NCBI GenBank assembly: GCA_042571085.1
Contig: JBHPGB010000001.1
Span: 3,190-67,189, forward strand
DNA: 64,000 nucleotides
Source of the DNA: Patescibacteria group bacterium
Lineage (GTDB): Bacteria > Patescibacteriota > Minisyncoccia > Phycocordibacterales > JBHPGB01
Direction of reading: 5' to 3'
Part shown: positions 2,878-36,392 of the stretch, piece by piece
How positions within the stretch are numbered: position 1 is the first letter of the stretch
How the letters are laid out: each line of letters opens with the position of its first letter
Program-made: the position numbers and the translations under genes
The notes under the pieces: model-generated
What the model was told of the DNA's origin: nothing
What the model saw: the letters and a program-made list of their open reading frames with translations, nothing else
The model's database searches: none

Positions 2878-4644
2878 ATGCATAGTTACAAAAATTATCT
2901 TACACACTTAGTTAAAGCCAGCACTCTTATGGTGTGCGCTTTATTTTTGTTGCTAAGTGCCCACTTTGCACATGCGGCAGAAATAGATCTTGGGCTACGT
3001 TTTTCTGATGGATCAGAAACATACATAGCAGCTATAGAGCCTTTTGGCACACTAACTTCTCCACTACGTATTTCTGATGAAAACGGTGATGTGTACGGAG
3101 TTATTCTGGTGGACGTAAGTGATCCTGATGCATTACCTGTTCGTATACAAACTTCAGGTGGAACTAAGGCGATAAAAAAATATAACCCATTTGATCCGAG
3201 TGTCATCACATCATGCGAGGAGCTTCAAAAGATTGGCTATTACGCGGAATATCCTGGTTCTGAAGATTACACAATTGATCCAGACCCAGCAAAAAACTAT
3301 GGTAATAATTACATAGACTGTAGAGCAACAAATCCAGCAAATCCGGAAAATGCAGGTTCTGTTTGGGATGCAACGACTGGTGGGTTATATTATTCAGCTG
3401 GAGGAAAGGGATTTTTACCATTAGCAATAGGCTCAGTCTTTACTGGCTCAATTGATGGACAGGGTAATAAGATAGTTAATCTATTCATCGATAGGCGTAC
3501 ATCATCTGACTATGGATATTCTACTGGTTTGATCTCATACGGTTCTGGTGCAAGTATAAGCAATCTAGGGCTACAAAGCACTACCATAAAAGGAGAGACT
3601 TATGTTGGAGGACTAGTTGCCAGTTGTGCAGGATGTACAATCACTAATTCTTATGTAAAAGGCACGGTTAATGGATACGGACCCTCTGGGGATAAGGGAG
3701 GTCTTGTCGGGAGGCTTATGAGCCCTTCTGTGGTTACAAATTCTTATACAACAGGAACGATGGGAATAAGAGACGGGTATTTAACTGGTGGTGTGTTTGG
3801 TAGTGTGTATGGTTCTACAATCGACGGATGTTATTCAACTGCAACCACATACGGAAAAGGAGGTCTTGCTGGTACTGTTGACTCATCCACCATCACAAAT
3901 TCATACACGACCGGACGTGTTATAGGAAAATACGGTGGAAGCATGACTGGTGGATTGGTTGGGTATGTTAGCGGCGCATCATCAATAACAAATTCTTACG
4001 CAACAGGGAATGTAACAGCCGGAGATTACGGATGGCACACAGGGGGGCTCGTTGGGGTTAATAGTGGTGGTTCAACTATTACAAATTCTTATGCAACTGG
4101 AAATGTGTTTGGTGACCAGTACAATACCGGTGGTTTGGTCGGAAAAAATGATAGATCAACAATTACAAAGTCTTATGCAAGCGGAGATGTTGATGGATTA
4201 TATGATGTGGGAGGGCTTGTTGGATATAATGATGGTAATATAACCGCCTTGACAGGCTCCACAATCACAAACTCCTATGCAACTGGAAATGTAACAGGTA
4301 CTTCATGGGTCGGAGGATTTGCAGGACTCCATCAGTACAATTCTAAAATCAATAGGTCTTACTCAACTGGACTGGTTACTGCAGGAGGACAGAGCGTAGG
4401 TGGTTTTATTGGAAGGAATATTAGTTCTACACAGGCTTATTCATACTACAATTATCAAAGCTCTGGACAAGCTAACCCGGTTGGATCCGGCTCAAGTACT
4501 GGAGTAGGTAAAAAAACAACAACACAAATGAAACAACAAGGTACTTACACAGGATTTAACTTTACAACACCTATATGGAAAATGATTTCAGGTAGGTATG
4601 CTTGTTTAAATTGGCAAACAAACGCTTCTTGCCCAATTCCTTAA
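2878..4644 (+). CDS. Secreted repeat protein with multiple GLUG-type motifs (TITNSYATGNV...GGLVG repeats)
   Basis: Signal peptide-like N-terminus; at least 8 tandem approx 25-aa repeats each containing GGLVG/GGFxG and TNSY(A/T)TG. Confidence 0.6.
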   Translation: MHSYKNYLTHLVKASTLMVCALFLLLSAHFAHAAEIDLGLRFSDGSETYIAAIEPFGTLTSPLRISDENGDVYGVILVDVSDPDALPVRIQTSGGTKAIKKYNPFDPSVITSCEELQKIGYYAEYPGSEDYTIDPDPAKNYGNNYIDCRATNPANPENAGSVWDATTGGLYYSAGGKGFLPLAIGSVFTGSIDGQGNKIVNLFIDRRTSSDYGYSTGLISYGSGASISNLGLQSTTIKGETYVGGLVASCAGCTITNSYVKGTVNGYGPSGDKGGLVGRLMSPSVVTNSYTTGTMGIRDGYLTGGVFGSVYGSTIDGCYSTATTYGKGGLAGTVDSSTITNSYTTGRVIGKYGGSMTGGLVGYVSGASSITNSYATGNVTAGDYGWHTGGLVGVNSGGSTITNSYATGNVFGDQYNTGGLVGKNDRSTITKSYASGDVDGLYDVGGLVGYNDGNITALTGSTITNSYATGNVTGTSWVGGFAGLHQYNSKINRSYSTGLVTAGGQSVGGFIGRNISSTQAYSYYNYQSSGQANPVGSGSSTGVGKKTTTQMKQQGTYTGFNFTTPIWKMISGRYACLNWQTNASCPIP

Positions 4645-4851: not shown

Positions 4852-6045
4852 ATGGCAGATGCATTTGATAGAACAAAGCCACACGTAAACGTAGGTACTA
4901 TTGGTCACGTTGACCACGGTAAAACTACTCTTACAGCTGGTATTTTGAACTCATTGAAGCTAGACGGACAAAACGTAAAGTTTGAAGACGTTGCTTCAAT
5001 TGATAACGCTCCTGAAGAGCGTGAACGTGGTATTACAATTTCACTTCACCACAGTGAATACGAGACAGCTAATCGTCACTACGCGCACATCGATGCGCCA
5101 GGTCACGCCGACTACATCAAAAACATGATTACCGGTGCGGCACAGATGGACGGCGCAATTTTGGTTGTTGCTGCTACTGATGGTGTGATGCCTCAGACTC
5201 GTGAGCACATCTTGCTTGCAAAACAAGTTGGTGTGCCAAAGATCTTGGTATTCATTAACAAAGTAGACATGGTAGATGATCAAGATATGATTGACCTTGT
5301 TGAAGAAGAAATCCGAGAACTTCTTACAAAGTACGGATTTGATGGTGAAAATACACCTATTGTTAAAGGTTCAGGTTTGAAAGCTGCAGAAGCTTCAGAT
5401 ATCAATGATGAATATGTACAAAAATGTCTTGAGCTTATGAAAGCTCTAGATGAATGGATTCCAACACCAGAGCGTGAATTGGACAAGCCTTTCCTTATGC
5501 CAATTGAAGACATCTTCTCAATTGAGGGACGTGGAACAGTAGTAACAGGACGTATTGAAAGAGGTCAGGTTAAGGTTGGAGAAGAAATTGAAATTGTTGG
5601 TATCAAAGATACAGCAAAGACAACAGTTACAGGTATTGAAATGTTCAACAAAAGTCTTGAGTCAGGACAGGCTGGAGACAACGCGGGAATTTTGGTTCGT
5701 GGAACAAAGAAAGAGGACATTACTCGTGGACAGGTTCTAGCTGCTCCAGGGTCAATTACACCTCACACAGAATTTGAAGCTGAAATCTACGTATTGAAGA
5801 AAGAGGAAGGTGGTCGTCACACTCCATTCTTCTCAGGTTACAAGCCTCAGTTCTACATTAGAACAACAGATGTAACAGGAGACGTTACACTTCCAGAAGG
5901 AACAGAGATGGTTATGCCTGGAGATACAGTAACATTCAAAGTTAAGCTTGTTGCTCCAGTTGCTATGGAAGACCAAATGCGCTTCGCGGTTCGTGAAGGT
6001 GGTAAGACTGTAGGTGCTGGTGTTGTTACAAAAATCATCGCTTAG
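4852..6045 (+). CDS. tuf: Elongation factor Tu
   Basis: [21 protein letters not shown] motifs; 397 aa. Confidence 0.97.
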
Positions 6046-6050
6046 TTGAA

Positions 6051-6162
6051 ATTTCCAAAATTGACGCGGAGCTTTGTTGGCTTCCTCGAAATAATACTCA
6101 CAGTACTCTTGTACAGCTCGTGTCATTTCTTGTTGCCGCCTCGCTCCACATTCAATTTGTGC
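6051..6162 (+). repeat. Copy 1 of conserved about 100-nt intergenic element (TCGAAATAATACTCACAGTAC...GTACAGCTC...GCCTCCTCG) in S10 leader position
   Basis: About 75-80% identity to copies at 9526-9627 and 18884-18996; flanking 7-nt stem covaries between copies. Confidence 0.7.
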
Positions 6163-6252
6163 AAATTTCAACGCCAATTCAAACCGTCGTGGTTTAAAAA
6201 AGTAAATTACCAGTTGTCGCTAAACCCAAGGGGTATAGGTAAATAAACATTT

Positions 6253-6594
6253 ATGGCTACAAAAAAAACTACAAAAAAAGGAGATGAGACACCAAAATTG
6301 CGTATTCGCGTAGGTGCATATGAGCACAAAGTGCTTGATGCATCTGTAAAGCAGATCATTGATACTGCTATGCGCTTAGACGCACAAATTATTGGTCCAG
6401 TCCCTCTTCCTACAGAGAAAAAGAAATATACCGTCAACCGCTCTTCATTTGTCTACAAAGACGCGCGAGAGCAGTTTGAAATGAGGATTCATAAGCGATT
6501 GATTGATATTTTGAACCCTACTCCAAAGATTGTGGAGGCGTTGACTAACCTCAACCTCCCATCAGGAGTTAACGTGGATGTTAAGATGAGCTAA
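6253..6594 (+). CDS. rpsJ: Ribosomal protein S10
   Basis: 113 aa, canonical S10 sequence ([13 protein letters not shown]...). Confidence 0.95.
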
Positions 6595-6608: not shown

Positions 6609-6656
6609 CACACAAAACAAAAGCGTCGGCTTCGCCGACGCTTTTGTTTTGTGTGT
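6609..6656 (+). terminator. Very stable hairpin/terminator after rpsJ (22-bp perfect stem, UUCG tetraloop)
   Basis: CACACAAAACAAAAGCGTCGGC-ttcg-GCCGACGCTTTTGTTTTGTGTG. Confidence 0.7.
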
Positions 6657-6660
6657 AAAA

Positions 6661-6722
6661 ACTAATCGGCTCACTCGCAGTGAGTCGATTAATATGTTGA
6701 AGAATAAGGGTAAAAAAATCGC
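6661..6722 (+). repeat. Member of CGGCTCA-palindrome repeat family (variant copy)
   Basis: AATCGGCTCActcgcagTGAGtCGATTAATAtgTTGAAGAATAaGGGT; compare 34471-34532 and 36393-36454. Confidence 0.6.
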
Positions 6723-6867: not shown

Positions 6868-7479
6868 ATGAAAAAGTTTATCTTAGGAACAAAAGAAGAA
6901 ATGACACAAATTTTTACCGAAGACGGTAAAGTTATTCCTGCTACAGTAGTAAATGCTGGGCCGGTTAAAGTTACTCAGGTAAAAAGCACTGACGGAAAAG
7001 ACGGATACGAAGCAGTACAGGTTGGATTTGGTTCAAAGAAAGAAAAGAGTATAAATAAGGCCGAAAGAGGTCATATGGGAAATGATGATAATTTCAGCGA
7101 TTTAGTAGAGTTTCGTACTGAAGGGTCAGAACTTAAGAAAGGAGACGAAATCACAGCTGACATTTTTGAAGAAGGAGATGACGTACAAGTAAGCGGAATC
7201 AGTAAGGGTAAAGGTTTCCAAGGTGTTGTTAAGCGTCATGGATTTCACGGAGGACCACGAAGTCACGGTCAGAAGCACTCAGAGCGTGAGCCAGGATCAA
7301 TTGGTGCTACGGGACCGCAAAGAGTATTCAAAGGTAAACGAATGGGCGGCAGAATGGGATCAGACAGAGTTACTGTTAAAGGATTGAAGATTGTGGGAGT
7401 AGATAAAGAAAATAATAAGCTTTTGATATCAGGAGCTGTACCAGGAAAGCGTGGAACACTACTTGAAATTCGCGGATAA
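6868..7479 (+). CDS. rplC: Ribosomal protein L3
   Basis: 203 aa; L3 signature around GKGFQGVVKRHGF. Confidence 0.95.
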   Translation: MKKFILGTKEEMTQIFTEDGKVIPATVVNAGPVKVTQVKSTDGKDGYEAVQVGFGSKKEKSINKAERGHMGNDDNFSDLVEFRTEGSELKKGDEITADIFEEGDDVQVSGISKGKGFQGVVKRHGFHGGPRSHGQKHSEREPGSIGATGPQRVFKGKRMGGRMGSDRVTVKGLKIVGVDKENNKLLISGAVPGKRGTLLEIRG

Positions 7480-7504
7480 TAAATTTCAAAAAATATAAAA
7501 CATT

Positions 7505-8167
7505 ATGAATAGCAAAGTATACAACCAAACAGGAAAAGAAGCAGGCAAGATTGATTTGCCAGAAGCTGTTTTCGGTTTGCCTGAAAATATGGACTTGATT
7601 CATCAGGTTGTTATTTCTATGCAAAGTAATGCTCGAACAAATGTTGCACATGCTAAAGACAGAAGTGAAGTACGTGGTGGTGGTAAAAAGCCTTGGAAAC
7701 AAAAAGGTACAGGACGAGCACGACACGGATCAAGCCGCTCACCAATTTGGGTTGGTGGTGGTGTAACACACGGACCAACAAACGAGAGAAACTACACAAA
7801 GAAAATCAACAAGAAAATGAAAACAAAAGCTTTGTTTACAGCGCTTTCAGGAAAATTGAATGACAATGAAATTCTTTTTGTAGACTCACTTGATTTTACA
7901 GAAGCAAAAACAGCAAAAGCTAGCGAAATATTTAAGGCACTAGCTGGCATTAAAGGATATGAAGCGCTTGGAGAAAAGAAGCAAAACACAGCTCTTATCA
8001 CAACACTTTCAAAAGACGAAAATGTATACAAGAGTTTTGGTAATTTCGGAAACATTGCAATTGAAGAGGTGAGAAACTTGAATCCGGTAGATGTACTTAC
8101 ATACAAGTATTTGATAGTAGTTAATCCAGAAGAAAGTGTTAAATTTTTGGAAACTAAATTAGCATAA
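7505..8167 (+). CDS. rplD: Ribosomal protein L4
   Basis: 220 aa; RGGGKKPWKQKGTGRAR motif. Confidence 0.95.
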   Translation: MNSKVYNQTGKEAGKIDLPEAVFGLPENMDLIHQVVISMQSNARTNVAHAKDRSEVRGGGKKPWKQKGTGRARHGSSRSPIWVGGGVTHGPTNERNYTKKINKKMKTKALFTALSGKLNDNEILFVDSLDFTEAKTAKASEIFKALAGIKGYEALGEKKQNTALITTLSKDENVYKSFGNFGNIAIEEVRNLNPVDVLTYKYLIVVNPEESVKFLETKLA

Positions 8168-8682: not shown

Positions 8683-9525
8683 ATGAAAAGATATAAACCA
8701 ACAACACCATCACGAAGAAATATGAGCACGGTTACATACCGAGGTGTGTTGACTGCGTCTGAGCCTAAAAAATCTCTTACAAAAGGACGTAAGCGTGCTG
8801 TTGGTCGCAACAGTGCTGGACGTATTACAGTGCGCCACAAAGGAGGTGGACATAAGCGTTTATATCGAGAAATTGACTTTAAATACAACAAAATTGATAT
8901 CCCAGCTAAAGTGGAAACTATTGAATATGATCCAAACCGTTCAGGATTTATTGCTCTTGTTGTGTATGCAGATGGTGAGCGTCGTTATATACTTGCTCCA
9001 AGTTCACTTAAGGTTGGCGATAAGTTTGTAGTTTCAGAAAAAGCAGAAGTAAAAGTTGGAAACAGAATGCCACTTAAGAATATTCCGATAGGTACTTTTG
9101 TATACAATATCGAATTGAAGCCTGGTGCAGGTGCACGTATTGCACGATCAGCAGGATCATACGCTGAAGTAGTTGCAAACTCAGAAGGATACACAAACAT
9201 CAAAATGCCTTCAAGTGAAGTACGTAAAGTATTGGAATTAGCATGGGCTACAATCGGTGAAGTTTCAAACTCAGAATACAAATTACGTAATATTGGTAAA
9301 GCTGGACGTAGTCGTCACATGGGAATTCGTCCAACGGTTCGTGGTTCAGCCATGAACCCAGTAGATCACCCGTATGGTGGTGGTGAAGGTAAAGCAGGAC
9401 GAGGACGTCGTCGCGCAGTATCTAAGTGGGGTAAGCCGACTGGAAAAGGTCAGAAGACTCGTCGCGTAAAGAAATACTCAAACAAACTTATAGTATCTCG
9501 CCGAAAAGTTGGCAAGAAGAGATAA
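8683..9525 (+). CDS. rplB: Ribosomal protein L2
   Basis: 280 aa; RHKGGGHKRLYR and GGGEGKAGRG motifs. Confidence 0.96.
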   Translation: MKRYKPTTPSRRNMSTVTYRGVLTASEPKKSLTKGRKRAVGRNSAGRITVRHKGGGHKRLYREIDFKYNKIDIPAKVETIEYDPNRSGFIALVVYADGERRYILAPSSLKVGDKFVVSEKAEVKVGNRMPLKNIPIGTFVYNIELKPGAGARIARSAGSYAEVVANSEGYTNIKMPSSEVRKVLELAWATIGEVSNSEYKLRNIGKAGRSRHMGIRPTVRGSAMNPVDHPYGGGEGKAGRGRRRAVSKWGKPTGKGQKTRRVKKYSNKLIVSRRKVGKKR

Positions 9526-9627
9526 TTCCATTTTTGGCGCAGAACTTTGTCGACTGCTTCGAAATAATACTCACAGTACCACTCGTACAGCTCATATTAT
9601 TTCTCATTGCCTCCTCGTTCTGCATCC
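9526..9627 (+). repeat. Copy 2 of conserved r-protein-operon intergenic element
   Basis: TTCCAtttttGGCG...TCGAAATAATACTCACAGTACcactcGTACAGCTC...GCCTCCTCG; closing stem GCAGAAC/GTTCTGC. Confidence 0.7.
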
Positions 9628-9653
9628 AAAAATGAAATTATCTTGAACTAAAC

Positions 9654-9701: not shown

Positions 9702-10475
9702 TTATTCAAGTGAGAATTCGTTCTTTATTACATGGCCACAATGCTTGCAGTGCGAAGCGTCTAGTTCGTGTCTACGTAGCCCACAATCTGGGCATTCATA
9801 TTGAATACGTGGGCGACGAAAAATACTTTGTGCAAGTCTAATAAATAAAGTAACGCCGAAAATCATAATGATAATGGAAAGCATTTTACCTGCGGTTCCA
9901 ACGGCTATAATATCCCCAAAACCGGTCGTGGTGAGTGTTGTGATGGTGAAATAGAGAGCATCAAGGTGGTTACCTATATTTGCATTGATTGAGGATTGAG
10001 AAACAAATACGATTACTGTCATTACAAAAAGGAATACAAAGAAGTTTAAAATTCCAACGATTATATTTCTATTGCGCGCGATTGCACCATTTTCTTTCTC
10101 TAGATAATCAAGTGCGCGGTATGTTCTGAAGATACGCAATGTCCTTATTACTCGAAGGATTGCAAGATTGCCGACAAGTGCAGGCATCAGAAGTGACACT
10201 ATTACAATAAAATCAGTAATCGCTAGCAGGCTAAATGCATAATTAAGCTTTTTAGGTGCAAGCCATAATCTACCGATGTACTCAAAGGTAAATATTATTG
10301 CAAAGATGATTTCAACAGCATGTACCACCGAATGCTCAGGATATACGGCCTCAATTGCGAATAGGGAAAATAGTAAAATATCTATTAAAAACAACGTTTT
10401 ATTGAATATAACACTGGTGTGTTTCTTCCCATAAAAAAGTGTCCGCAATTTCCTTTTAAATTTCCTGATAGTCAT
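9702..10475 (-). CDS. Voltage-gated K+ channel-like protein (S4 sensor + TTGFGD filter) with C-terminal CxxC-CxxC zinc ribbon
   Basis: LRVIRTLRIFRTYR (Arg every third residue), selectivity filter TTTGFGDI, C-terminal CPDCG...CKHCG. Confidence 0.75.
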   Translation of the reverse strand: MTIRKFKRKLRTLFYGKKHTSVIFNKTLFLIDILLFSLFAIEAVYPEHSVVHAVEIIFAIIFTFEYIGRLWLAPKKLNYAFSLLAITDFIVIVSLLMPALVGNLAILRVIRTLRIFRTYRALDYLEKENGAIARNRNIIVGILNFFVFLFVMTVIVFVSQSSINANIGNHLDALYFTITTLTTTGFGDIIAVGTAGKMLSIIIMIFGVTLFIRLAQSIFRRPRIQYECPDCGLRRHELDASHCKHCGHVIKNEFSLE

Positions 10476-10954
10476 TACATATATTGTACTTTGAATCTCA
10501 GATGTTTCAACTGGTAATTTGACTTAGTGTATCATTGCTGTTAATCTGTGCGAGGAGTTTGAGCTGTTCTTGTTAATTTATGAGGAGAAATTATATGGCT
10601 GAAAACGGTGTAATGCCCACAGCAGCATCTTTATTTCCGACGGAATGGAATTCCGACGGGTGTGAACACCAAAGTGTGATTCTCACAGCTTTGAACATAT
10701 CATGTCCGGAAGATGCTGGTGTTGCTTCCGTGCAGATCGATGACCTTGAACCGTTTGTTCCTGTGAAAGGTAAATACTGGAGTCTCGCTTTTGCGCGATT
10801 TGTTGCAGGTTGTTTCGACTCTGCTTTTCGCGGTGTCACGAGCTCTTCATATGCATATAGCATTAATGATGAAATGAAGGAGCTTTGTTGGGCATGCTTT
10901 GGTTTGCCTGAGGATCATGGTGGTTTTTACACAGCATTTCTTAACGGCAGTACA

Positions 10955-11815
10955 ATGCAAATTAGCTACATATCAACAGGAGAAATTGAAGTGAATGAAA
11001 ACATACAGAAAATCATCGAAGAAGCTTTTGAGCAGCGGGCAGAGATTAATCATAAGAATGCCTGTAGTACCCTTCGGCAGGCTGTTGCTATTGCTATAGA
11101 GGGATTGGATGACGGATCTGTTCGTGTTGCTGAGAAAATTGACGGCGACTGGGTCGTCAACGACTGGGTCAAGAAGGCGGTGTTGCTTTCGTTCAGGATT
11201 AACGATAATGAGCCAATATTAGGCGGTTTCACCAACTATTATGACAAAGTGCCGTCCAAGTATGCCGGTGCCAGCGACAGGCGCCTACGCGATGATGGTG
11301 TGCGCATAGTACCCCCAGCTGTCGTTCGCAAGGGCAGCCACATTGCTTCAGGTGTTGTACTCATGCCGAGCTACGTGAACATCGGCGCCTATGTGGACAG
11401 CGGCACTATGGTGGACACCTGGGCCACGGTCGGCTCCTGTGCTCAGATCGGTAAGAATTGCCACATTTCTGGCGGTGCTGGAATCGGTGGTGTATTGGAG
11501 CCATTACAAGCCAACCCAACCATCATCGAAGATAACTGCTTCATTGGAGCTCGTTCCGAGATCGTGGAAGGGGTGATTGTTGAAGAAGGTTCAGTGATTT
11601 CCATGGGCGTCTTCATCGGTCAGAGCACCAAGATCTACAATCGCGAAACCGGTGAGATCAGCTATGGCCGCGTACCTGCTGGTTCTGTGGTGGTTGCTGG
11701 TTCTTTACCATCAGCTGATGGTAGCTATAGCCTCAACTGTGCAATCATCGTCAAACAGGTGGACGAGAAAACACGTGGCAAGGTTAGCATCAACGAACTG
11801 CTGCGCGAGGCCTAG
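10955..11815 (+). CDS. dapD: Tetrahydrodipicolinate N-succinyltransferase (gammaproteobacterial type); annotated from internal Met, ORF open to 10580
   Basis: Very high similarity recalled to E. coli DapD across 270 aa (e.g. [80 protein letters not shown]); local GC clearly above flanks. Confidence 0.85.
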
Positions 11816-15849: not shown

Positions 15850-16446
15850 TTGTTTGACTTTCGTGTTTGTATTGATAATATGTGTATAGGTTCGGTTTTT
15901 TGTTGGAGAATGTATATGAATATTCCCATTGATCAAGATCCTAGTATTCCAGAAATGGATGTTTTGGAATGTTTATCTAATGAAGAACTCGCAAGACTTT
16001 TACTAAGACAGCTTTGGCAATGCTATGACAGTGGTGGAATATCTATAGGAAGATCTCCAGAAAGCCAGTTGCTTGAAGCTGTTATGAATATCATCCCATT
16101 ACCAGATCTTGTAGATATGGATAGATTTTATTCAGATGATATTATGATAGAAGCAAGGATTCGTTTTGTCGTGATAGGGCGTGAGTCGTGTGAAATGAAG
16201 CAGTGCGCTTTGTTTCAACAAGATCCTACGTTGTCTGATAACTGTCTTGTGTATTTGCTTCTGAAAAAACTAACCAACCTTTATGAAAAGGAAGAATTTC
16301 CAAGATTGGCTGAAGTTGGACTCATAACAAATGCAATGAAACTTATTTCTATTGATCTGATTGAGAATTTGGAGTCTTTGCCCGATTTTTCTGAAAAAGT
16401 TTTGTTGCAAGAAGCAGCTGATAGAGATTGGGCTAAAAATCATTAA
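15850..16446 (+). CDS. Hypothetical protein (inserted between rplE and rpsZ)
   Basis: 198 aa, Cys-rich N-terminus, no recognised motif; stop overlaps start of next gene (TAAATG). Confidence 0.55.
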   Translation: MFDFRVCIDNMCIGSVFCWRMYMNIPIDQDPSIPEMDVLECLSNEELARLLLRQLWQCYDSGGISIGRSPESQLLEAVMNIIPLPDLVDMDRFYSDDIMIEARIRFVVIGRESCEMKQCALFQQDPTLSDNCLVYLLLKKLTNLYEKEEFPRLAEVGLITNAMKLISIDLIENLESLPDFSEKVLLQEAADRDWAKNH

Positions 16447-17439
16447 ATGAGTGTTGTTATTTTATTTTGCAGCACTCTTTTTTGTTTAATTGACTTATGT
16501 GCTTGGACGAGTATTATGATACCAGGTTTGATTTTTGAGGATTTAACAATGAGTAATCGAAAGGTAAAACTGCTGACCTATGGAACAATTCCGTGCTGGT
16601 ACGAATTAAGTTGGGACAAAAATAACCTAGCAATAATTTTTAAGTTGCACAAAAACGCAATTTTGAATAATGGGATTGGTTTCGCCAAGAACTTTCCATC
16701 CGATGCTCCGATTGTAGAGCATTTGCATAAAAGTTTGGGTCTAAATGAGTTTTGCGGCAACTTAGATACAGATTTTGGTTTCGGTGGTGTGCTTAAACAC
16801 AAAGGAGAAGAGGGTGAATTCGTTGTCTTTTCTGTTGCGCTGCCAAATATACGAAAAACCACAAATAACAAATGCCCTATCTGTAATGATAATGGTGATG
16901 AAGGGTGTCTTTTTTGCGGTGGTAGTGGTGTGGAATGGAGATTTGATCATGATCTTCTATTTAATATTTCCGCATCTTTTGTAGTTATGTTTACGGCGTT
17001 TGGTGAGTATTCTGACTACGACACTGAATGTGAATTTCCACAATTGATGACGGTTGATCTAACGATTGAGAAAAGATCTGTGTATGGAGCTTGTATTGGT
17101 GGAAAATTTGGAATTGATTTGGTGAAGTGGATGAGTACTTTTAATCCAAATACCAAAATTACAGAAATGATAGAGGCGATGAAGTGCGCGTATGGACAGA
17201 TGTCCGGTATTGTTCCTGATAAATACGAAAGGTTTCTTGCAAGCATTGACTATGAAAACGGATGGCTTAATGTTAGTTGTCCTGGAAATGCATGCGGACT
17301 GAATCCTTCTAATGGAAACGTTTGTGCCGGTGAAGGATATGGGTTTTCTCCACATAATACAGACACACCCTTACAGCAGCTTACTCTTCTTGCTGGTCTT
17401 GCGGCATTGCATGACAAAGCCCGAAAAGAAATGCCCTAA
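16447..17439 (+). CDS. Hypothetical protein with DnaJ-type CxxC-x7-CxxCGGSG zinc-finger-like motif
   Basis: 330 aa; CPICNDNGDEGCLFCGGSG; translationally coupled to upstream ORF. Confidence 0.55.
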   Translation: MSVVILFCSTLFCLIDLCAWTSIMIPGLIFEDLTMSNRKVKLLTYGTIPCWYELSWDKNNLAIIFKLHKNAILNNGIGFAKNFPSDAPIVEHLHKSLGLNEFCGNLDTDFGFGGVLKHKGEEGEFVVFSVALPNIRKTTNNKCPICNDNGDEGCLFCGGSGVEWRFDHDLLFNISASFVVMFTAFGEYSDYDTECEFPQLMTVDLTIEKRSVYGACIGGKFGIDLVKWMSTFNPNTKITEMIEAMKCAYGQMSGIVPDKYERFLASIDYENGWLNVSCPGNACGLNPSNGNVCAGEGYGFSPHNTDTPLQQLTLLAGLAALHDKARKEMP

Positions 17440-17493: not shown

Positions 17494-17501
17494 CTTTGAA
17501 A

Positions 17502-17530
17502 ATACGGCTCATTTGGGCTGAGCCGTATTT
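17502..17530. repeat. CGGCTCA-family perfect hairpin (ATACGGCTCA-tttggg-cTGAGCCGTAT); second related hairpin at 17557-17581
   Basis: Perfect 11-bp stem; shares CGGCTCA/TGAGCCG arms with repeats at 6661, 34471, 36393. Confidence 0.6.
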
Positions 17531-17758
17531 TACATTCAAAAACAAGGGTTTTTGGGCAACGGCTCAGCAGGCTGAGCTGTTTAAAATATCATAGTTGCAT
17601 TTTGAGACGCTTTTTGATAGTATAGCTCTACACTTGAATTTCATCAGATCCGCCATTCTCCTCTCGTATTCCTTGTTTCGGCTCGGAATACGGAAGAATA
17701 ATGGTGTGATATCTAATGAAAATTTGAAAATAAACGTTTTTTAGCGTTTTTATTATAT

Positions 17759-18348: not shown

Positions 18349-18882
18349 ATGAGTCGTATAGGAAAACAAACAATAGTAATACCAGAAAAGACAGAAGTCG
18401 TTCAAAACGATGGTGTTATTACTGTGAAAGGACCGCTTGGTGAACTTAAAAAAGAGCTTAGAGATAATATTGAGATTAAGATTGAAGGGAATGAAGTTAC
18501 GCTTGCTCCAAAAGATGAGTCAAAATCTACAACAGCATTATGGGGAACATACGCATCACATATTAAAAACATGGTTGACGGTGTTAACAAACTGTATGAG
18601 AAAAAGCTTATCGTTGAAGGTGTTGGATTCAAGGTTGATTTGAAAGGTAATGAAATTGAAATGGCGCTTGGATTTTCACATCCTGTGAAAGTAGCTATTC
18701 CAGAAGGAATAACAGTAGCCGTTGAAAAAAACACAATCAGCATTTCAAGTATTGATAAGGAGGCGTTAGGACAATTTGCCGCAAAAGTAAGAGCTTTGAA
18801 GAAACCAGAGCCTTACAAAGGAAAAGGAATTAGATACGAAGATGAGGTTGTCAGACGTAAGCAAGGTAAGAAAGCAGTCTAA
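18349..18882 (+). CDS. rplF: Ribosomal protein L6
   Basis: 177 aa; two L6 alpha/beta repeats. Confidence 0.95.
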   Translation: MSRIGKQTIVIPEKTEVVQNDGVITVKGPLGELKKELRDNIEIKIEGNEVTLAPKDESKSTTALWGTYASHIKNMVDGVNKLYEKKLIVEGVGFKVDLKGNEIEMALGFSHPVKVAIPEGITVAVEKNTISISSIDKEALGQFAAKVRALKKPEPYKGKGIRYEDEVVRRKQGKKAV

Positions 18883-18883
18883 A

Positions 18884-18996
18884 ACTTCCAAAATTGACGA
18901 ATTTCTTTGTCAGCTTCGGAAAAAATATTTTCACAGTACTACATGTACAGCTTCAAATATTTTTTCCTAGCCTCCTCGAAATTCATTCAATTTATG
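18884..18996 (+). repeat. Copy 3 of conserved r-protein-operon intergenic element
   Basis: ACTTCCAAAATTGACGaatTTCTTTGTcaGCTTCGGAAAAAATAtTTTCACAGTACtacatGTACAGCTtc...AGCCTCCTCGaaattCATTCAATTTaTG; closing stem GAATTTC/GAAATTC. Confidence 0.7.
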
Positions 18997-19018
18997 AAAG
19001 TTTAAGTTAAAATCGATT

Positions 19019-19942: not shown

Positions 19943-20395
19943 ATGCAATTACACGATCTACAAAGAAATAATCCAAACAAAAAAGCACGACGAGTTGGTC
20001 GTGGTGGTAAGCGTGGTAAGACGAGCGGCCGCGGTATGAAAGGTCAGAAGGCTCGCGCTGGTACAAGTGGACGCCCTGAAATGCGTGATATAATCAAGAA
20101 GTTGCCTAAGAAGCGTGGTTATGGAAAGAACCGAGCACGCACAGTAAACCCTAGTGCACTTAAGCCTGAAACAATAAACGTTTCATCACTCGAAGCTCTA
20201 TTTAATGCTGGTGAAAAGGTTACTCCTGCAGCATTACTTGAAAAGCGTTTGGTACGTCGTCAAAAGGGTAGAGCTCCAGTAGTTAAAATTTTGGGCACTG
20301 GTACTATCACTAAAAAACTAACTATCTCTGGTTGCGAATTTTCTACAAGTGCAAAAGAGAAAGTTGAAAAAGCAGGTGGAACAATCACAAACTAA
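19943..20395 (+). CDS. rplO: Ribosomal protein L15 (directly follows S5: no L30 gene)
   Basis: 150 aa; RVGRGGKRGKTSGRGMKGQKAR. Confidence 0.95.
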   Translation: MQLHDLQRNNPNKKARRVGRGGKRGKTSGRGMKGQKARAGTSGRPEMRDIIKKLPKKRGYGKNRARTVNPSALKPETINVSSLEALFNAGEKVTPAALLEKRLVRRQKGRAPVVKILGTGTITKKLTISGCEFSTSAKEKVEKAGGTITN

Positions 20396-20398
20396 TCT

Positions 20399-21667
20399 AT
20401 GGATTTAATTCAAAAAGCAAAACTCATCATTCGTGACAGCAGTTTGCGCAATCGCATCCTGTTTATTTTAGGTGCTCTTGTGCTTTTCCGTTTACTAGCA
20501 GTGATTCCGATTCCAGGAGTTGATACTTTGAAGTTGCAAGAATTTTTTGGTAACAATCAATTCCTAGGACTTTTGAATATTTTTTCTGGAGGAGGTTTGT
20601 CTAGCTTGTCTATTGTAATGCTTGGTGTTGCACCGTATATTACAGCATCTATTATTATGCAGCTTTCAACAGTAATGTCTGAAAAATTGAAGGCAATGTA
20701 TCATGATGATGGTGAAGCTGGACGAAAAAAGTTTTCACAATATTCTCGTTTCCTCACAGTACCACTTGGTGCAATTCAAGGATTTGGTTTTCTTACAGTG
20801 TTGCAAAGACAAGGTGTAATTGATCAATTATCTAGTACAGACTTCATAACAAACATAATCATTATTACCGCAGGTTCAGTACTGCTCATGTGGATTGGAG
20901 AGCTAATCTCAGAATTTGGTATTGGTAATGGTGTTTCTATAATTATTTTTGCAGGTATTGTTGCTTCGCTACCTACTACGATTAGTCAACTCGTATTTAC
21001 ATTTGATGTGTCACAAATCCCTCTATACCTAGGATTTGTTATTGCTGCTATAGCTGTTACGGCCGGTGTTGTTGCTATTACAGAAGCAGAACGCCCTATT
21101 CCTATCACATATGCAAAACGTGTACGCGGACAAAAAGTATACGGTGGAGTATCAACATACCTACCACTACGAGTGAACCAATCTGGTGTTATGCCAATTA
21201 TCTTCGCTCTGTCTATTTTGCTATTGCCACAAATGATTGTTGGATTCTTGGCAAATGCCGGTAACCCAACAGTACAGACTGTTTCATCAGCAATTCTTTC
21301 ATTCTTAGAAAATGGTTGGTTCTACTCAATTTTCTACTTCGTGTTAGTATTCCTATTTACATACTTCTACACAGCTATTACATTTGATCCACACGCAATT
21401 GCTACAAACCTGCAGAAAAGTGGAGCATTCGTACCAGGTGTACGACCAGGAAAAACAACCGAAGATTATATCGCAAAAATCGTTACTCGTATTACACTAG
21501 TAGGAGCAGTATTCCTAGGAGCTGTTGCTGTATTGCCTCTTGCTATGCAAGCAATCACAGGAATTACAGCGCTTGCCGTAGGTGGTACAGCACTTTTGAT
21601 TGCAGTGTCAGTGGTTCTCGATCTTGTTAAAAAGGTTGAAGCACAAATCTCAATGCGCGAGTATTAA
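20399..21667 (+). CDS. secY: Preprotein translocase subunit SecY
   Basis: 422 aa, 10 TM pattern, canonical SecY. Confidence 0.95.
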   Translation: MDLIQKAKLIIRDSSLRNRILFILGALVLFRLLAVIPIPGVDTLKLQEFFGNNQFLGLLNIFSGGGLSSLSIVMLGVAPYITASIIMQLSTVMSEKLKAMYHDDGEAGRKKFSQYSRFLTVPLGAIQGFGFLTVLQRQGVIDQLSSTDFITNIIIITAGSVLLMWIGELISEFGIGNGVSIIIFAGIVASLPTTISQLVFTFDVSQIPLYLGFVIAAIAVTAGVVAITEAERPIPITYAKRVRGQKVYGGVSTYLPLRVNQSGVMPIIFALSILLLPQMIVGFLANAGNPTVQTVSSAILSFLENGWFYSIFYFVLVFLFTYFYTAITFDPHAIATNLQKSGAFVPGVRPGKTTEDYIAKIVTRITLVGAVFLGAVAVLPLAMQAITGITALAVGGTALLIAVSVVLDLVKKVEAQISMREY

Positions 21668-29409: not shown

Positions 29410-30246
29410 ATGGAAAAAGTCAAATTAAATCAGTATATAGCTCAGGCCACTGGCATGTCCCGTAGGGAGGCCAGTGAGGAGATAAAAGCTGGGAAAATCA
29501 AGATAAATGGGCGCAAAGCTCTTTTTTGGGAGGAAATTGACCCTAAAGAGGACAGTATTCTATACCAAGGCAAGAAAATCACCTTACCAGAGCATACTAC
29601 TACAATTATCCTAAATAAGCCTGTTGGGTATGTAACAACCCGAGATGATGAATTTGGAAGGGATATCGTGATGGATTTGTTGCCAGAAAATTTACAATAC
29701 CTAAAACCGGTTGGCCGACTTGATGCGGATAGTGAAGGTCTGCTTATCCTCACTGATGACGGAGATAAGATATATGAATGGACACATCCAAAATTTGAAC
29801 ACGAAAAAGAATACGTCTTAACGCTCAAAAAACCAATTACCGAAGAATTGCTGCAAAAATTTATAAAGGGTGTGAAGCTACAGGAGGGAATTGCCGTGGC
29901 TGACTATGTAGAGCCTATCTGGAAATCTCATTCCGGCTCTATGTCTCCAAATTTTGCTCGGAAACTCGTAAAAAATTCTTCAAAATATCCCGATATTCCT
30001 CAGAAATTTTTTACTTCGTCCCGAACCAAATTTGAAAACATATCCTCGAAAGCAGATTCCCAGACAGGCTCTGAAAAGATCAGTACAAAAGAATTAAACA
30101 TAGTGATCCACCAAGGATGGAAGAGGCAACTGCGCCGCATGGCAGAAAAATGCGGGAATGAAGTGACAAAACTAAAGCGTATTCGTATGGGAGACATTAC
30201 TCTAGATGACTTGCCAAGTGGTGAGTGGAAGAAGGTTGATTTGTAA
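29410..30246 (+). CDS. S4-domain pseudouridine synthase (RsuA/RluB family) with C-terminal extension
   Basis: S4 RNA-binding N-terminus; GRLDADSEGLLILTDDG catalytic motif. Confidence 0.85.
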   Translation: MEKVKLNQYIAQATGMSRREASEEIKAGKIKINGRKALFWEEIDPKEDSILYQGKKITLPEHTTTIILNKPVGYVTTRDDEFGRDIVMDLLPENLQYLKPVGRLDADSEGLLILTDDGDKIYEWTHPKFEHEKEYVLTLKKPITEELLQKFIKGVKLQEGIAVADYVEPIWKSHSGSMSPNFARKLVKNSSKYPDIPQKFFTSSRTKFENISSKADSQTGSEKISTKELNIVIHQGWKRQLRRMAEKCGNEVTKLKRIRMGDITLDDLPSGEWKKVDL

Positions 30247-33963: not shown

Positions 33964-34410
33964 ATGTTGAATCATAAAAAAGTCGCAATATTTTTGTTTA
34001 CAGCAACCGTCATTATAAATTATATTGTCTATTTAATCTGGGAACCTCCATACGATAGTTTGTGCGGTGGTGGAATTCATGAAAATAGAGATTGTGTTAA
34101 TTTAATAAACAACTTAAGCGAACCTGTTTTTTGGTCTTTTCTAGCACTTCTTCCAGTTACTATAGCTCTTTTCTTCCTACGTCGTGAAGTATTTGTGGCT
34201 TGGGTAAAGTTTGCAGCTATTGGATTTCCTATAATGCTTGCAGGACTTCTCTATACATTCAACATGCCACAATCTACAGGATCATTTATGGGAGGTCCAT
34301 CAGAATCAGAAATTGCATCTGTTGTTCTTCCAGGCCTCTTCCTCATTATCTCCCTCTTAATCATCGCAATAAAATCTTGGAAGTTGAGGAAAATGAATGG
34401 TGCTGAATAA
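33964..34410 (+). CDS. Small 4-TM membrane protein, paralog A (C-terminal 27 aa identical to paralog B)
   Basis: ...GLFLIISLLIIAIKSWKLRKMNGAE; followed by the same terminator as paralog B. Confidence 0.6.
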   Translation: MLNHKKVAIFLFTATVIINYIVYLIWEPPYDSLCGGGIHENRDCVNLINNLSEPVFWSFLALLPVTIALFFLRREVFVAWVKFAAIGFPIMLAGLLYTFNMPQSTGSFMGGPSESEIASVVLPGLFLIISLLIIAIKSWKLRKMNGAE

Positions 34411-34470
34411 ATATAAAATACAACAAAAAACCGCCCTCAAGCGGTTTTTTTATACCCACAGGGCACAGGT

Positions 34471-34532
34471 ATAAATTAATCGGCTCAACCGGGTTGAGCC
34501 GATTAATAGTTTGAAGAATATGGGTTTTTTGA
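34471..34532. repeat. 62-bp repeat containing perfect palindrome ATTAATCGGCTCAACCGGGTTGAGCCGATTAAT
   Basis: Near-identical copy at 36393-36454; variant at 6661-6722. Confidence 0.75.
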
Positions 34533-34804: not shown

Positions 34805-35212
34805 ATGTATAAAAGAAATATTATAAAATACCTTGAGATATCTTTTGTTGGAATTATTCTTAGTCTAATATTGTTAAATGCACCAGAAATTGGTTTTTGT
34901 GTTAATTGTTACGGTTTGGCAGATGTTGGGCAGCCTTTAAGTTTGTTGTTTTTGTCACTCGTTGTTATTTTTACGTTTTTGTTTTTCGCAAAGAAGATGG
35001 TTTTCACAACATGGAAAAAGTTTGCAATTCCATACCTCATATTTTCCACGATCATTCTTCTAATACCATCTGGTGGCATGGGTGGATTTATGGGGGGAGG
35101 GCCTGACAATGAATTTTTTGCAATAATACTTTCTGGTCTCTTCCTCATAATCTCCCTCCTAATCATCGCGATAAAATCTTGGAAGTTGAGGAAAATGAAT
35201 GGTGCTGAATAA
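34805..35212 (+). CDS. Small 4-TM membrane protein, paralog B
   Basis: Same architecture and identical C-terminal 27 aa plus identical terminator (AAAAAACCGCCCTCAAGCGGTTTTTT) as 33964..34410. Confidence 0.6.
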   Translation: MYKRNIIKYLEISFVGIILSLILLNAPEIGFCVNCYGLADVGQPLSLLFLSLVVIFTFLFFAKKMVFTTWKKFAIPYLIFSTIILLIPSGGMGGFMGGGPDNEFFAIILSGLFLIISLLIIAIKSWKLRKMNGAE

Positions 35213-35265
35213 ATACAAAACTCAACAACAAAAAACCGCCCTCAAGCGGTTTTTTGTTGTTGGAA

Positions 35266-35301
35266 ATATCGTTCTAAATTAAAGAAATGGGTGAGGTGTT
35301 G
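35266..35301 (+). promoter_or_regulatory. 36-bp duplicated upstream module TATCGTTCTAAATTAAAGAAATGGGTGAGGTGTTGA (copy 1), ends in -35-like TTGAC
   Basis: Identical copy at 35795-35830; each followed about 70-165 bp later by a small ORF. Confidence 0.55.
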
Positions 35302-35373
35302 ACGAAATAGTGTATATGTGATAATGTTTACTTCAGAAATTTCCCATTCAATAAAACTCTATAGGAGTTTCAG

Positions 35374-35703: not shown

Positions 35704-35794
35704 TTTAAGTACTTGTTGATAGAGGCCGTTCGCTTGAACGGCCTTTTTTATATTTACACAACCAGACGGAGGAATGTTACGTTTGTGTGGTAAG

Positions 35795-36322: not shown

Positions 36323-36392
36323 AGGCTCACGTTGCAAATGGCCCTGCTTGAGTTTAAGTAGGGCTATTCTTTTTATAAACTTGCTTTTTTAT

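What the first reader, a model, noticed from the sequence alone, without database searches (positions are those of the whole stretch)
6051..6162. Three-copy conserved about 100-nt element punctuating the ribosomal-protein superoperon, with covarying closing stem
Copies lie after tuf (6051-6162), after rplB (9526-9627) and after rplF (18884-18996). They share TTCCAnnnTTGnCG...GCTTCGgAAAtAATAcTCACAGTAC-n5-GTACAGCT...GCCTCCTCG at about 75-80% identity. Outer 7-nt inverted repeats differ between copies but remain complementary (GCGGAGC/GCTCCaC; GCAGAAC/GTTCTGC; GAATTTC/GAAATTC), which is the covariation signature of a structured RNA. The + sense ends in an anti-Shine-Dalgarno-like CCTCCTCG (antisense gives a strong GAGGAGG). 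Antisense mini-ORFs are not conserved, which argues against coding.
Basis: seen in the sequence. Interest (0 to 1): 0.65.

Follow-up and report, generated by a model that had tools for sequence, protein, structure and literature searches.

The report
Mobile hairpin repeats hugging stop codons
The three look-alike 125-base stretches in this ribosomal-protein gene cluster are copies of a small mobile hairpin repeat, a distant cousin of the Correia elements of Neisseria, that lands right on the stop codons of highly expressed genes in candidate-phyla-radiation (CPR) bacteria; they are not a regulator built into the operon.

Summary
Each copy is a 124-128 nt imperfect hairpin (6045-6172, 9520-9643, 18879-19006). 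All six helices covary, not only the outer 7-nt stem.

The copies are not operon-specific RNA leaders. A covariance model finds more than 60 further matches (some duplicate the same loci), several per genome, in many CPR genomes and in Moraxellaceae. Close relatives show filled and empty sites, and a 93% relative shows decayed copies.

The elements are mostly flanked by TA. Their 5' end sits on the TAA or TAG stop codon of a co-oriented upstream gene in 24 of 44 copies, against 1 of 44 in the other orientation. About half of the independent insertions follow translation genes.

The apex and one internal loop are conserved; the termini are not. The better-folding strand is the one opposite to the mRNA. 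The anti-Shine-Dalgarno motif is not conserved.

No Rfam family matches. Short Correia elements of Neisseria score weakly with the model and align colinearly with the Moraxellaceae copies.

Verdict: a new, distant Correia-like family of miniature inverted-repeat elements (MITEs). It is co-transcribed with the operon as an intercistronic hairpin. Its mobilising enzyme and any RNA-level role are unknown.

The parts
6045..6172 (-). Copy 1, a 128-nt hairpin element abutting the tuf stop codon (TAG at 6043-6045). The orientation of the covariance model (GAGCUGUAC..GUACUGUGA) is the minus strand. The plus strand is the one co-transcribed with tuf and rpsJ.
   Evidence: CM R1 105.3 bits. Fold energies are -42 kcal/mol (minus) and -28.8 (plus). 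Hairpin limits.
9520..9643 (-). Copy 2, a 124-nt hairpin element overlapping the last codon and the stop of rplB (AGA TAA). It is flanked TA...TA. Pairing runs 3 nt past the TA into the coding sequence (AGA/TCT).
   Evidence: CM R1 109.1 bits. Fold energies are -46.6 (minus) and -28.9 (plus). Limits. An identical copy is present in sister-strain contigs L201 and L202.
18879..19006 (-). Copy 3, a 128-nt hairpin element overlapping the rplF stop codon (TAA at 18880-18882), 13 nt upstream of rplR.
   Evidence: CM R1 106.8 bits. Fold energies are -45.6 (minus) and -30.3 (plus). The same element is in L071. A decayed ortholog is in L072. The site is empty in L075.
6098..6118 (+). Conserved apex of copy 1: TCACAGTAC-N4-GTACAGCT. 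On the minus strand it reads AGCUGUAC..GUACUGUGA. With the flanking G it forms tandem G.A pairs, a G.U pair, a C-G pair, a U.U mismatch and a 4-bp GUAC/GUAC stem.
9571..9592 (+). Conserved apex of copy 2: TCACAGTAC-N5-GTACAGCT.
18931..18952 (+). Conserved apex of copy 3.
29911..30072 (-). A related but distinct 162-nt hairpin element with an 18-nt terminal inverted repeat, GAGCCTRTCTGGRAATCT. It is inserted in frame (54 codons) in a pseudouridine synthase gene. Its inner 105 nt are a weak match to the family model and it lacks the GTAC apex.
   Evidence: CM 29.2 bits, E 6e-5. Folds. Homologs are 219-224 aa against 278 aa here. The exact empty site is in the sister strain L080. TIR.

Best explanation
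The three elements are copies of a non-autonomous mobile hairpin repeat, a miniature inverted-repeat element (MITE). It belongs to a family spread through CPR/Patescibacteria and Moraxellaceae and is distantly related to the Correia (CREE/NEMIS) elements of Neisseria.

Shown:
- The family is multi-copy and shows presence/absence differences between close relatives.
- It is about 105-128 nt long and mostly flanked by TA.
- It is a nearly complete hairpin whose stems covary, while an apical motif and one internal loop are conserved.

Inferred:
- It inserts at a TA, as Correia does. Because the element starts with A or G, an insertion into the TA of a stop codon rebuilds TAA or TAG. This leaves the upstream protein untouched.
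- In genomes whose operons have 3-25 nt spacers, stop codons are therefore almost the only harmless targets. This would explain why copies sit exactly on stop codons.
- In the window the copies are read through as part of the ribosomal-protein mRNA. No promoter-like or terminator-like site lies on either strand. They would form an intercistronic stem-loop there.
- By analogy with Correia and ERIC, such a stem-loop could be an RNase III substrate or a 3' stabiliser of the upstream cistron.

The mobilising enzyme is unknown, as it is for Correia. It probably recognises the conserved apex and internal loop of the folded element rather than the ends.
For: Copy number and spread. CM R1 finds 41 matches in 500 kb of genome loci and 32 in 409 kb of metagenome loci. 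There are up to 5 matches in 6.3 kb (L038; it also holds fragments and variant cores), and they occur on both strands.

Filled and empty sites:
- rpsS|rplV is empty in the window and filled in L072.
- tuf|rpsJ and rplF|rplR are empty in L075.
- A related 162-nt element is present in the window and absent from a 98%-identical gene in L080.

Decay. Orthologs in L072 score 65, 23 and 21 bits against 107, 105 and 109 in the window, and their GTAC core is mutated.

TA ends. TA lies within 4 nt of both model ends in 30 of 43 copies, where about 6 are expected.

Stop-codon abutment. In 24 of 44 copies a co-oriented ORF ends -6 to +5 nt from the element, always with TAA or TAG. Only 1 of 44 does so in the other orientation. 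Among the metagenome copies the counts are 17 of 32 against 1.

Structure. 92.5% of cells are paired and 38 of 41 pairs covary.

No promoter-like or terminator-like site lies in or next to the three copies.

Link to Correia:
- Short CREE score 23.3 and 17.5 bits over the full model length.
- They align colinearly with Moraxellaceae copies, sharing ACAAGGC, GAAGC, GTAC-N5-GTAC and CGAGG-AACGC-GTA.
- Pairwise z-scores are 3.1-6.5 for four of the five Moraxellaceae copies (1.1-1.9 for L046) in one orientation, against -1.6 to 1.9 (one of 3.4) for the reverse complement.
- CREE are 104-108 or 153-157 bp, insert at TA, have no known transposase, and are RNase III substrates when transcribed (PMC2649163, PMC10969869).
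Against: - No transposase or other recurrent neighbouring gene was found.
- The only informative filled/empty pair for the GTAC family fits a TA duplication only if one base was also lost. It fits an insertion without duplication directly after TAA without any change. The related 162-nt element inserted without any duplication.
- A TA target is palindromic, so it does not explain the 24:1 orientation bias.
- The conserved part is the centre and the termini vary. This is the reverse of ordinary MITEs.
- The better-folding strand is not the transcribed one.
- The link to Correia is marginal for the CPR members directly (z about 0-2). It rests on the Moraxellaceae copies as intermediates.
- The roughly 9-fold enrichment after translation genes hints at selection or targeting that the model does not explain.
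Confidence: 0.7

Rival explanations
1. The element is a functional structured RNA in the operon transcript. It would be an intercistronic punctuation element placed after stop codons of highly expressed genes. It could set mRNA processing or stability, or affect termination and re-initiation by ribosomes, and it would be kept by selection. It may have spread by transposition and then been domesticated.
For: - Full-length covariation.
- Exact placement on stop codons with one orientation.
- About 14 of about 26 independent insertions follow tuf, rpsL, rpsG, rpsI, rpsS, rpsC, rplB, rplF, rplJ, rplX or secY. Others follow ssb and atpE.
- The same junctions are occupied in distant lineages: tuf|rpsJ in the window and L019, rplF|rplR in the window and L003.
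- Moraxellaceae copies are kept at orthologous loci in sister species: L002/L011 and L023/L034.
- Precedents from my own knowledge: REP hairpins within 15 nt of a stop codon lower expression of the upstream gene, and ERIC and Correia elements affect mRNA decay (PMC10969869).
Against: - Empty sites in L075 and in the window itself.
- The core has been lost from orthologs in L072.
- The mRNA-sense strand is the weaker folder. In variable stems G.U outnumbers A.C 65 to 28, favouring the other strand, p = 1.6e-4.
- The conserved motifs are pyrimidine mismatches on the mRNA strand.
- Copies at the same junction in different genomes resemble other copies of their own genome more than each other. This points to independent insertions.
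Confidence: 0.17
2. The active form is the strand opposite to the mRNA. Either it is a small antisense RNA, or it is a folded single DNA strand used as a recombination or transposition substrate. The DNA case would resemble integron attC bottom strands, REP/RAYT elements or IS200/IS605 ends. Copies would persist in the orientation in which that strand is rarely exposed.
For: - The minus-type strand is more stable in all true copies, by about 5-24 kcal/mol (most 8-24).
- Two conserved tandem G.A motifs and a conserved G.U pair exist only on that strand.
- G.U against A.C is 65:28, and purine-purine against pyrimidine-pyrimidine mismatches are 64:32.
- Fixed orientation relative to the upstream gene, and a position at the gene's 3' end, are also properties of attC sites (my own knowledge).
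- The related 162-nt element inserted without a target duplication.
- The conserved centre with variable, merely complementary, ends suits recognition of a folded strand.
Against: - No promoter-like site for antisense transcription.
- No integrase, RAYT or TnpA in the window ORFs tested or near other copies.
- The attC R''/R' consensus is not seen at the ends (sequence inspection).
- TA at both ends in most copies fits a cut-and-paste TA duplication.
- The alignment used for the strand counts was fitted to a model built on that strand.
Confidence: 0.1
3. The similarity is a chance resemblance of ordinary intergenic hairpins or terminators.
For: The genome is AT-rich and has many intergenic hairpins. 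The model also gives weak hits (10-20 bits) to terminator hairpins.
Against: - Scores are 105-109 bits with E about 1e-25.
- The 17-base core is identical in the three copies and in dozens of loci elsewhere.
- No T-run follows the hairpins.
Confidence: 0.01

Closest known systems
Correia repeat-enclosed elements (CREE / NEMIS) of Neisseria
   Same: - Small non-coding hairpin-forming repeats. The short CREE form is 104-108 bp, against 103-107 nt in Moraxellaceae and 120-128 nt in CPR.
- TA at both ends, and a TA target.
- A directional core, no encoded protein and no known transposase.
- Dozens of dispersed copies, with strain-to-strain presence/absence.
- Co-transcription with neighbouring genes (PMC2649163, PMC10969869).
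- Shared sequence blocks with the Moraxellaceae members, including GTAC-N5-GTAC at the apex and ACAAGG...AACGC-GTA in the lower internal loop.
   Different: - The 26-bp Correia terminal repeat is absent from the window.
- In this family the termini differ between subfamilies while the apex is conserved.
- CPR copies carry an extra helix of about 10 bp.
- Strict stop-codon abutment in one orientation, and enrichment after translation genes, were not found described for CREE in the papers I read. CREE are reported mostly 5' of genes (PMC2649163).
- Direct similarity of CPR copies to CREE is not significant.
RUP of Streptococcus pneumoniae and other TA-duplicating MITEs of the IS630/Tc1-mariner type
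   Same: About 107 nt long, with terminal inverted repeats, TA flanks, no coding capacity and dispersal in intergenic regions (my own knowledge; RUP is listed in PMC10969869).
   Different: No IS630-type transposase or matching insertion-sequence ends were found. The family has a strong orientation bias and a conserved centre rather than conserved ends.
REP / REPIN elements, and ERIC (IRU) of enterobacteria
   Same: Transcribed intergenic hairpins inside operons, often close to the 3' end of genes. They affect mRNA stability or translation of the upstream gene (PMC10969869; REP near stop codons from my own knowledge).
   Different: REPs are about 35 nt, GC-rich, carry a GTAG tetranucleotide and are mobilised by RAYT. 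No RAYT and no such motif are seen here. No sequence similarity was found.
Rickettsia palindromic elements (RPE)
   Same: Palindromic repeats in a small genome. They can sit in frame inside protein-coding genes, as the 162-nt relative at 29911-30072 does (PMC10969869).
   Different: The three GTAC-core copies are intergenic. No sequence relation to RPE was tested.
Integron attC sites
   Same: Imperfect hairpins of 60-140 nt directly after the stop codon of a gene, in a fixed orientation, with the strand opposite to the gene folding as the active one (my own knowledge).
   Different: attC sites keep their conserved sequence (R''/R', L''/L') at the base and vary at the top. Here it is the reverse. 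No integrase or cassette array is present.
Ribosomal-protein mRNA leaders (for example the S10/L4, spc/S8 and L10 leaders)
   Same: They lie within r-protein operons and form structured RNA.
   Different: Leaders are operon-specific mimics of rRNA binding sites. Here one element recurs at unrelated junctions and outside r-protein operons. No Rfam leader matches.

Membership tests
Prokaryotic MITE (generic) | Short (under about 300 bp), non-coding and present in multiple dispersed copies | tested here: met
   The elements are 103-128 nt with no conserved ORF. There are 41 plus 32 model matches in fetched loci, and up to 5 in 6.3 kb.
Prokaryotic MITE (generic) | Terminal inverted repeats | tested here: met
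   The whole element is an imperfect palindrome. The ends pair in nearly all copies.
Prokaryotic MITE (generic) | Insertion polymorphism between related genomes (evidence of mobility) | tested here: met
   rpsS|rplV is empty in the window and filled in L072. tuf|rpsJ and rplF|rplR are empty in L075.
Prokaryotic MITE (generic) | Target-site duplication | tested here: inconclusive
   TA lies at both ends in 30 of 43 copies. The single filled/empty pair fits a TA duplication only with a 1-nt loss, or no duplication at all.
Prokaryotic MITE (generic) | A cognate autonomous element or transposase with matching ends | tested here: not met
   No recurrent neighbouring protein. No transposase among the 17 window and L038 ORFs scanned. 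Whole genomes were not searched.
Correia element (CREE/NEMIS) | The 26-bp Correia terminal repeat TATAGYGGATTAA... | tested here: not met
   No match in the window with up to 3 mismatches. Termini here read TAAAACTTCCAAA... or TAGGACTTACG....
Correia element (CREE/NEMIS) | TA target and TA at both ends | tested here: met
   for this family. PMC2649163 for CREE.
Correia element (CREE/NEMIS) | Characteristic directional core sequence | tested here: inconclusive
   Short CREE score 23.3 and 17.5 bits with CM R1, E 8e-4 to 3e-2. The alignment with Moraxellaceae copies is colinear. z is 3.1-6.5 for four of the five Moraxellaceae copies (1.1-1.9 for L046), in one orientation only. CPR copies are not significant directly.
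Correia element (CREE/NEMIS) | Transcribed hairpin cleaved or bound by RNase III | not testable with these tools
   This needs RNA end mapping or an in vitro RNase III assay.
Ribosomal-protein leader / autoregulatory RNA | Match to a curated leader family, or mimicry of an rRNA binding site specific to one operon | tested here: not met
   Rfam gives no hit at gathering score over the whole window, none at E<=10 on 5950-6300, and none at E<=1 on four loci. The same element recurs at many unrelated junctions.
Ribosomal-protein leader / autoregulatory RNA | Conserved presence at the same junction in relatives | tested here: not met
   L075 lacks it at tuf|rpsJ and rplF|rplR.
REP/REPIN-RAYT | A GTAG-type REP unit of about 35 nt in inverted pairs, and a RAYT gene flanked by REPs | tested here: not met
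   No such unit appears in the alignment. No Y1-transposase domain among the ORFs scanned. No recurrent neighbour.
Integron attC | Conserved R''/L''...L'/R' boxes at the base of the hairpin, a variable top, and an array with intI | tested here: not met
   Conservation lies at the top and the internal loop, while the base is variable. No integrase was found in the ORFs scanned. No attC model was available to run.
TIGR-Tas stem-loop arrays (CPR) | Tandem stem-loop units with two unpaired 8-12 nt spacers flanked by box C/D motifs, next to a Tas (Nop-domain) gene | tested here: not met
   Copies are dispersed singly, the loop is 4-5 nt and the body is almost fully paired. The family description is from PMC12045711.

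The most novel reading that the evidence does not exclude
The conserved apex and internal loop, each with tandem G.A pairs that exist on one strand only, could be the recognition module of a widespread, horizontally moving element. It would be handled as a folded single strand (RNA or DNA) by a still unknown protein. It would home specifically to the stop codons of highly expressed, translation-related genes. Correia elements would be one Neisseria-specific offshoot of it. The copies could then act as true punctuation of polycistronic mRNAs, or as attC-like single-strand recombination sites. The second role might explain why foreign genes accumulate at the same junctions of the ribosomal-protein cluster in this lineage.
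Probability: 0.15. Interest if true: 0.75.

Novelty: new member of a known kind. Interest (0 to 1): 0.42.

Why it matters
CPR bacteria have tiny, tightly packed genomes and are usually described as poor in mobile DNA. A hairpin repeat has colonised their most conserved operon without breaking it, because it rebuilds the stop codon it lands on. This shows how selfish DNA survives in such genomes.

It also warns that covariation alone does not prove a dedicated regulatory RNA.

The family appears to link the Correia elements to relatives in Moraxellaceae and CPR. Correia elements are, to my knowledge, described only in Neisseria, and what moves them is unknown. Comparative genomics across these hosts could expose the missing mobilising enzyme.

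The strict orientation, the strand asymmetry and the preference for translation genes are testable hints of an RNA-level or single-strand mechanism.

Tried and rejected
- Rfam at gathering score (window and 18 loci) and at permissive E-values (window 5950-6300; L011, L029, L008, L023) found nothing but tRNA and tmRNA.
- PARCEL elements are coding repeats and were rejected.
- MITEAba12 of Acinetobacter is 78% AT with a 9-bp duplication and a 16-bp terminal repeat, so it is a different element.
- TIGR-Tas arrays of CPR have a different architecture.
- The Neisseria REPIN is a different repeat from Correia.
- A literature search for the core sequence strings returned only GFP primers.
- A search for a transposase failed. 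Pfam on ORFs flanked by copies in L038 gave MurB, a TPR protein and a MazE-like protein. Pfam on 13 window ORFs gave no transposase or integrase. All-against-all comparison of ORFs from 30 loci found only translation factors and r-proteins recurring.
- blastn of the Acinetobacter copy against the plasmid collection gave no match.
- The viral collection gave only 4 core matches, and none scored with the model.
- A promoter and terminator scan found nothing at the copies.
- Extending the window upstream by exact-protein look-up failed for three window proteins.
- I examined whether the hairpin systematically copies the upstream flank beyond the TA. There is only a weak excess over chance: extensions of 0, 1, 2 and 3 nt were seen in 11, 6, 2 and 2 copies.
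- The Clostridia loci share only the 21-nt apex inside other repeats and are not matched by the model. I left them outside the family.

Full report
OBSERVATION. They share 77% mean column identity. They are longer than reported. The complementary arms run from the stop codon outward, giving hairpins at 6045-6172, 9520-9643 and 18879-19006. Every part of the element is paired, not only the 7-nt outer stem. As RNA, each copy folds far better than shuffles on both strands. The minus strand is much more stable, at -42 to -46.6 kcal/mol against -28.8 to -30.3.

RFAM. Rfam 15 has no matching family. This holds at gathering score and at E<=10 on the first copy.

MORE COPIES. An exact scan of one genome per species with the 17-base core TCACAGTAC-N4-5-GTACAGCT returned 70 loci. 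Roughly 140 chance matches would be expected from database size. About 45 of the loci show the core at the tip of a long hairpin. They come from Saccharibacteria, Parcubacteria, Kaiserbacteria, Yonathbacteria and unclassified CPR MAGs. They also come from Acinetobacter, Moraxella and Psychrobacter. The window's own organism is a Patescibacteria bacterium near Yonathbacteria.

COVARIANCE MODEL. Twenty CPR copies aligned well, and RNAalifold predicted 41 pairs, 31 of them with compensatory changes. A covariance model (R1) finds the following:
- In the window, exactly the three copies (105-109 bits) and one weak relative.
- 41 matches in the genome loci, including copies whose core has diverged.
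- 32 matches in 80 metagenome loci.

On 42 copies, 92.5% of cells pair and 38 of 41 pairs change on both sides. None of 500 shuffles reaches these values, and slid partners give 34-44% pairing. The alignment is fitted to the model, so these numbers lean towards the structure. The independent MAFFT/RNAalifold result agrees.

IT IS MOBILE DNA, NOT AN OPERON-SPECIFIC LEADER.
- Copy number. One Saccharibacteria MAG gave ten matches on six contigs (seven exact-core loci plus further model matches). Five of these matches, with extra fragments and variant cores, lie in 6.3 kb around murB.
- Empty sites in a relative. L075, with 83% L2 identity, has tight tuf|rpsJ (69 nt) and rplF|rplR (19 nt) junctions without the element.
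- Empty site in the window. The window is empty at rpsS|rplV, where L072 (93% L2 identity) carries a copy.
- Decay. Orthologous copies in L072 after tuf, rplB and rplF have decayed to 23, 21 and 65 bits, with the GTAC core mutated and 21-31% G+C.
- A related insertion. A 162-nt hairpin sits in frame in a pseudouridine synthase gene of the window (29911-30072). It is cleanly absent from the 98%-identical gene of a sister strain.
- Neighbours. No protein recurs next to the copies.

ANATOMY. Hairpins are 120-129 nt in CPR and 103-107 nt in Moraxellaceae, which lack one helix. Termini differ between subfamilies: TAAAACTTCCAAA..., TAGGACTTACG..., TAAAAAATGGTTAATTTGGG.... Two internal features are conserved on the model strand.
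- The apex reads GA-GC-U-GUAC / GUAC-U-GU-GA. This gives tandem G.A pairs, a G.U pair, a C-G pair, a U.U mismatch and a 4-bp stem.
- The lower internal loop reads C-NA-G-GA...GA-C-NAN-G, again with tandem G.A pairs.

Only CCT-N-G is conserved, so an anti-SD role is not supported.

In variable stems G.U outnumbers A.C 65 to 28 (p = 1.6e-4). Purine-purine mismatches outnumber pyrimidine-pyrimidine ones 64 to 32. In all true copies the model strand folds about 5-24 kcal/mol better (most 8-24).

PLACEMENT. In 24 of 44 copies a long ORF on the opposite strand to the model ends -6 to +5 nt from the element, always in TAA or TAG. The mirror arrangement occurs once. Metagenome copies give 17 of 32 against 1. 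Most copies have TA at both ends: 30 of 43, where about 6 are expected. The first base inside is A or G, so TA plus that first base recreates TAA or TAG.

UPSTREAM GENES. These include EF-Tu (three lineages), S12 (two), S7, S9, S19, S3 (two), L2, L6 (two), L10, L24 and SecY. They also include SSB, ATP synthase c, ArgRS, RNase H and M23 peptidases. In Acinetobacter they are acyl-CoA dehydrogenase (by my reading of the translation) and, by my reading, hemE. About 14 of 26 independent insertions follow translation genes, which make up about 6% of a CPR gene set. Copies at the same junction in different genomes look like the other copies of their own genome, so these are repeated hits rather than inheritance.

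No sigma-70-like promoter or intrinsic terminator lies in or beside the three window copies on either strand. They are most simply read through in the operon mRNA.

RELATION TO KNOWN ELEMENTS. The core reminded me of Correia elements, so I fetched real ones from prophage contigs using the published terminal repeat (PMC5039591).
- Short CREE (L204 2-104, L220 9596-9700) score 23.3 and 17.5 bits over the full model.
- They align colinearly with the Moraxellaceae copies, sharing ACAAGGC, GAAGC, GTAC-N5-GTAC and CGAGG-AACGC-GTA.
- Pairwise z-scores are 3.1-6.5 for four of the five Moraxellaceae copies (1.1-1.9 for L046) in one orientation, and about zero (one 3.4) for the reverse complement.
- CPR copies are not significantly similar to CREE directly. 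They are tied to the Moraxellaceae copies by the model at 40-52 bits.
- CREE are 104-108 or 153-157 bp, insert at TA, have a directional core and no known transposase, and are RNase III substrates when transcribed (PMC2649163, PMC10969869).
- The 26-bp Correia terminal repeat is absent from the window.

I therefore call this a new, distant Correia-like family, not a CREE.

MECHANISM. The shown and inferred steps are set out under the best explanation. In brief, the element is a mobile, TA-flanked hairpin that hugs stop codons and is conserved in structure. Inserting at the TA of a stop codon would rebuild that codon. In operons with 3-25 nt spacers this is nearly the only harmless site. The element would then be carried in the mRNA as an intercistronic stem-loop.

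Three things remain unexplained: the 24:1 orientation bias, the strand asymmetry, and the conserved centre with free ends. Each could mean one of the following:
- Selection against the very stable, SD-rich orientation in mRNA.
- A single-strand (RNA or DNA) substrate for the unknown enzyme.
- A domesticated RNA function.

I give the plain MITE reading 0.7, an RNA function in the transcript 0.17, and a minus-strand RNA or single-stranded DNA substrate 0.1.

VERDICT. The interpretation as a structured RNA is right about structure and wrong about specificity and probably about strand. The element is a new member of a known kind, with some unusual habits worth a targeted follow-up.

Noticed in passing
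window 29911-30072: A 162-nt hairpin element with an 18-nt terminal inverted repeat, GAGCCTRTCTGGRAATCT, is inserted in frame (54 codons) in an RluB/RsuA-type pseudouridine synthase. The sister strain (L080) has the exact empty site GTA|GAAAAG, and there is no target duplication. This resembles the in-frame behaviour of Rickettsia palindromic elements.
   Followed up: yes
window 6656-6718, 17494-17556, 34470-34532, 36392-36454: A second repeat family (about 63 nt, 62-95% identity to the reference copy) has a hairpin AATCGGCTCA...TGAGCCGATT followed by GGGTTTTTT. Two copies lie inside the ribosomal-protein cluster (rpsJ|rplC and before rpsN).
   Followed up: no
window 9702-11815 and 15850-17439; L072, L074, L075, L201: The ribosomal-protein cluster is interrupted by non-ribosomal genes. 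An ion channel and a THDPS-like acyltransferase lie between rplB and rpsS. Two ORFs without a Pfam hit lie between rplE and rpsN. Relatives carry different cargo at the same two junctions: a PaaX/Cas2-like ORF; ThiI plus Peptidase_S74 plus GP38; and a MYG1 exonuclease. These junctions are hot spots for gene insertion.
   Followed up: partly
L071 4610-4719 (rplO|secY); L201 701-795 (rplC|rplD): A different hairpin family, with arms made of TAATCA/TGATTA-like units, is inserted after stop codons of r-protein genes in the sister strain GCA_042577165. It is absent from the same junctions of the window (20395-20399 and 7479-7505).
   Followed up: partly
L008 379-606, 2188-2416, 7757-7982 (Clostridia MAG RGIG1834); also L041, L056, L001, L028: Firmicutes repeats carry the same 21-nt apex (GAAGCUGUAC..GUACUGUGAG) inside other structures. 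One is a 230-nt multi-hairpin repeat with z = -12. Each copy lies downstream of a gene, with the strong strand in the gene's sense. The family model does not match them.
   Followed up: partly
window 47138-47685 (-): The tmRNA match spans 548 nt for a 374-position model and only just passes the Rfam cutoff (50.2 against 47 bits). This suggests a large insertion or an unusual tmRNA.
   Followed up: no
window 2878-4644: A 588-aa protein has GLUG motifs encoded by repeats spaced mostly 93 nt apart (84-159) (repeat family D1).
   Followed up: no
window 34327-34450 and 35129-35255; 35258-35302 and 35786-35830: Nearby direct repeats of 90-100% identity include an identical terminator-like hairpin, AAAAAACCGCCCTCAAGCGGTTTTTT. 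This suggests a local duplication of a small gene cassette.
   Followed up: no
window 56152-56188 and 56335-56371: A 37-nt direct repeat (92% identity) has one copy overlapping the end of the tRNA gene at 56354-56440. This could be a partial tRNA duplication of the kind left by an integrating element.
   Followed up: no
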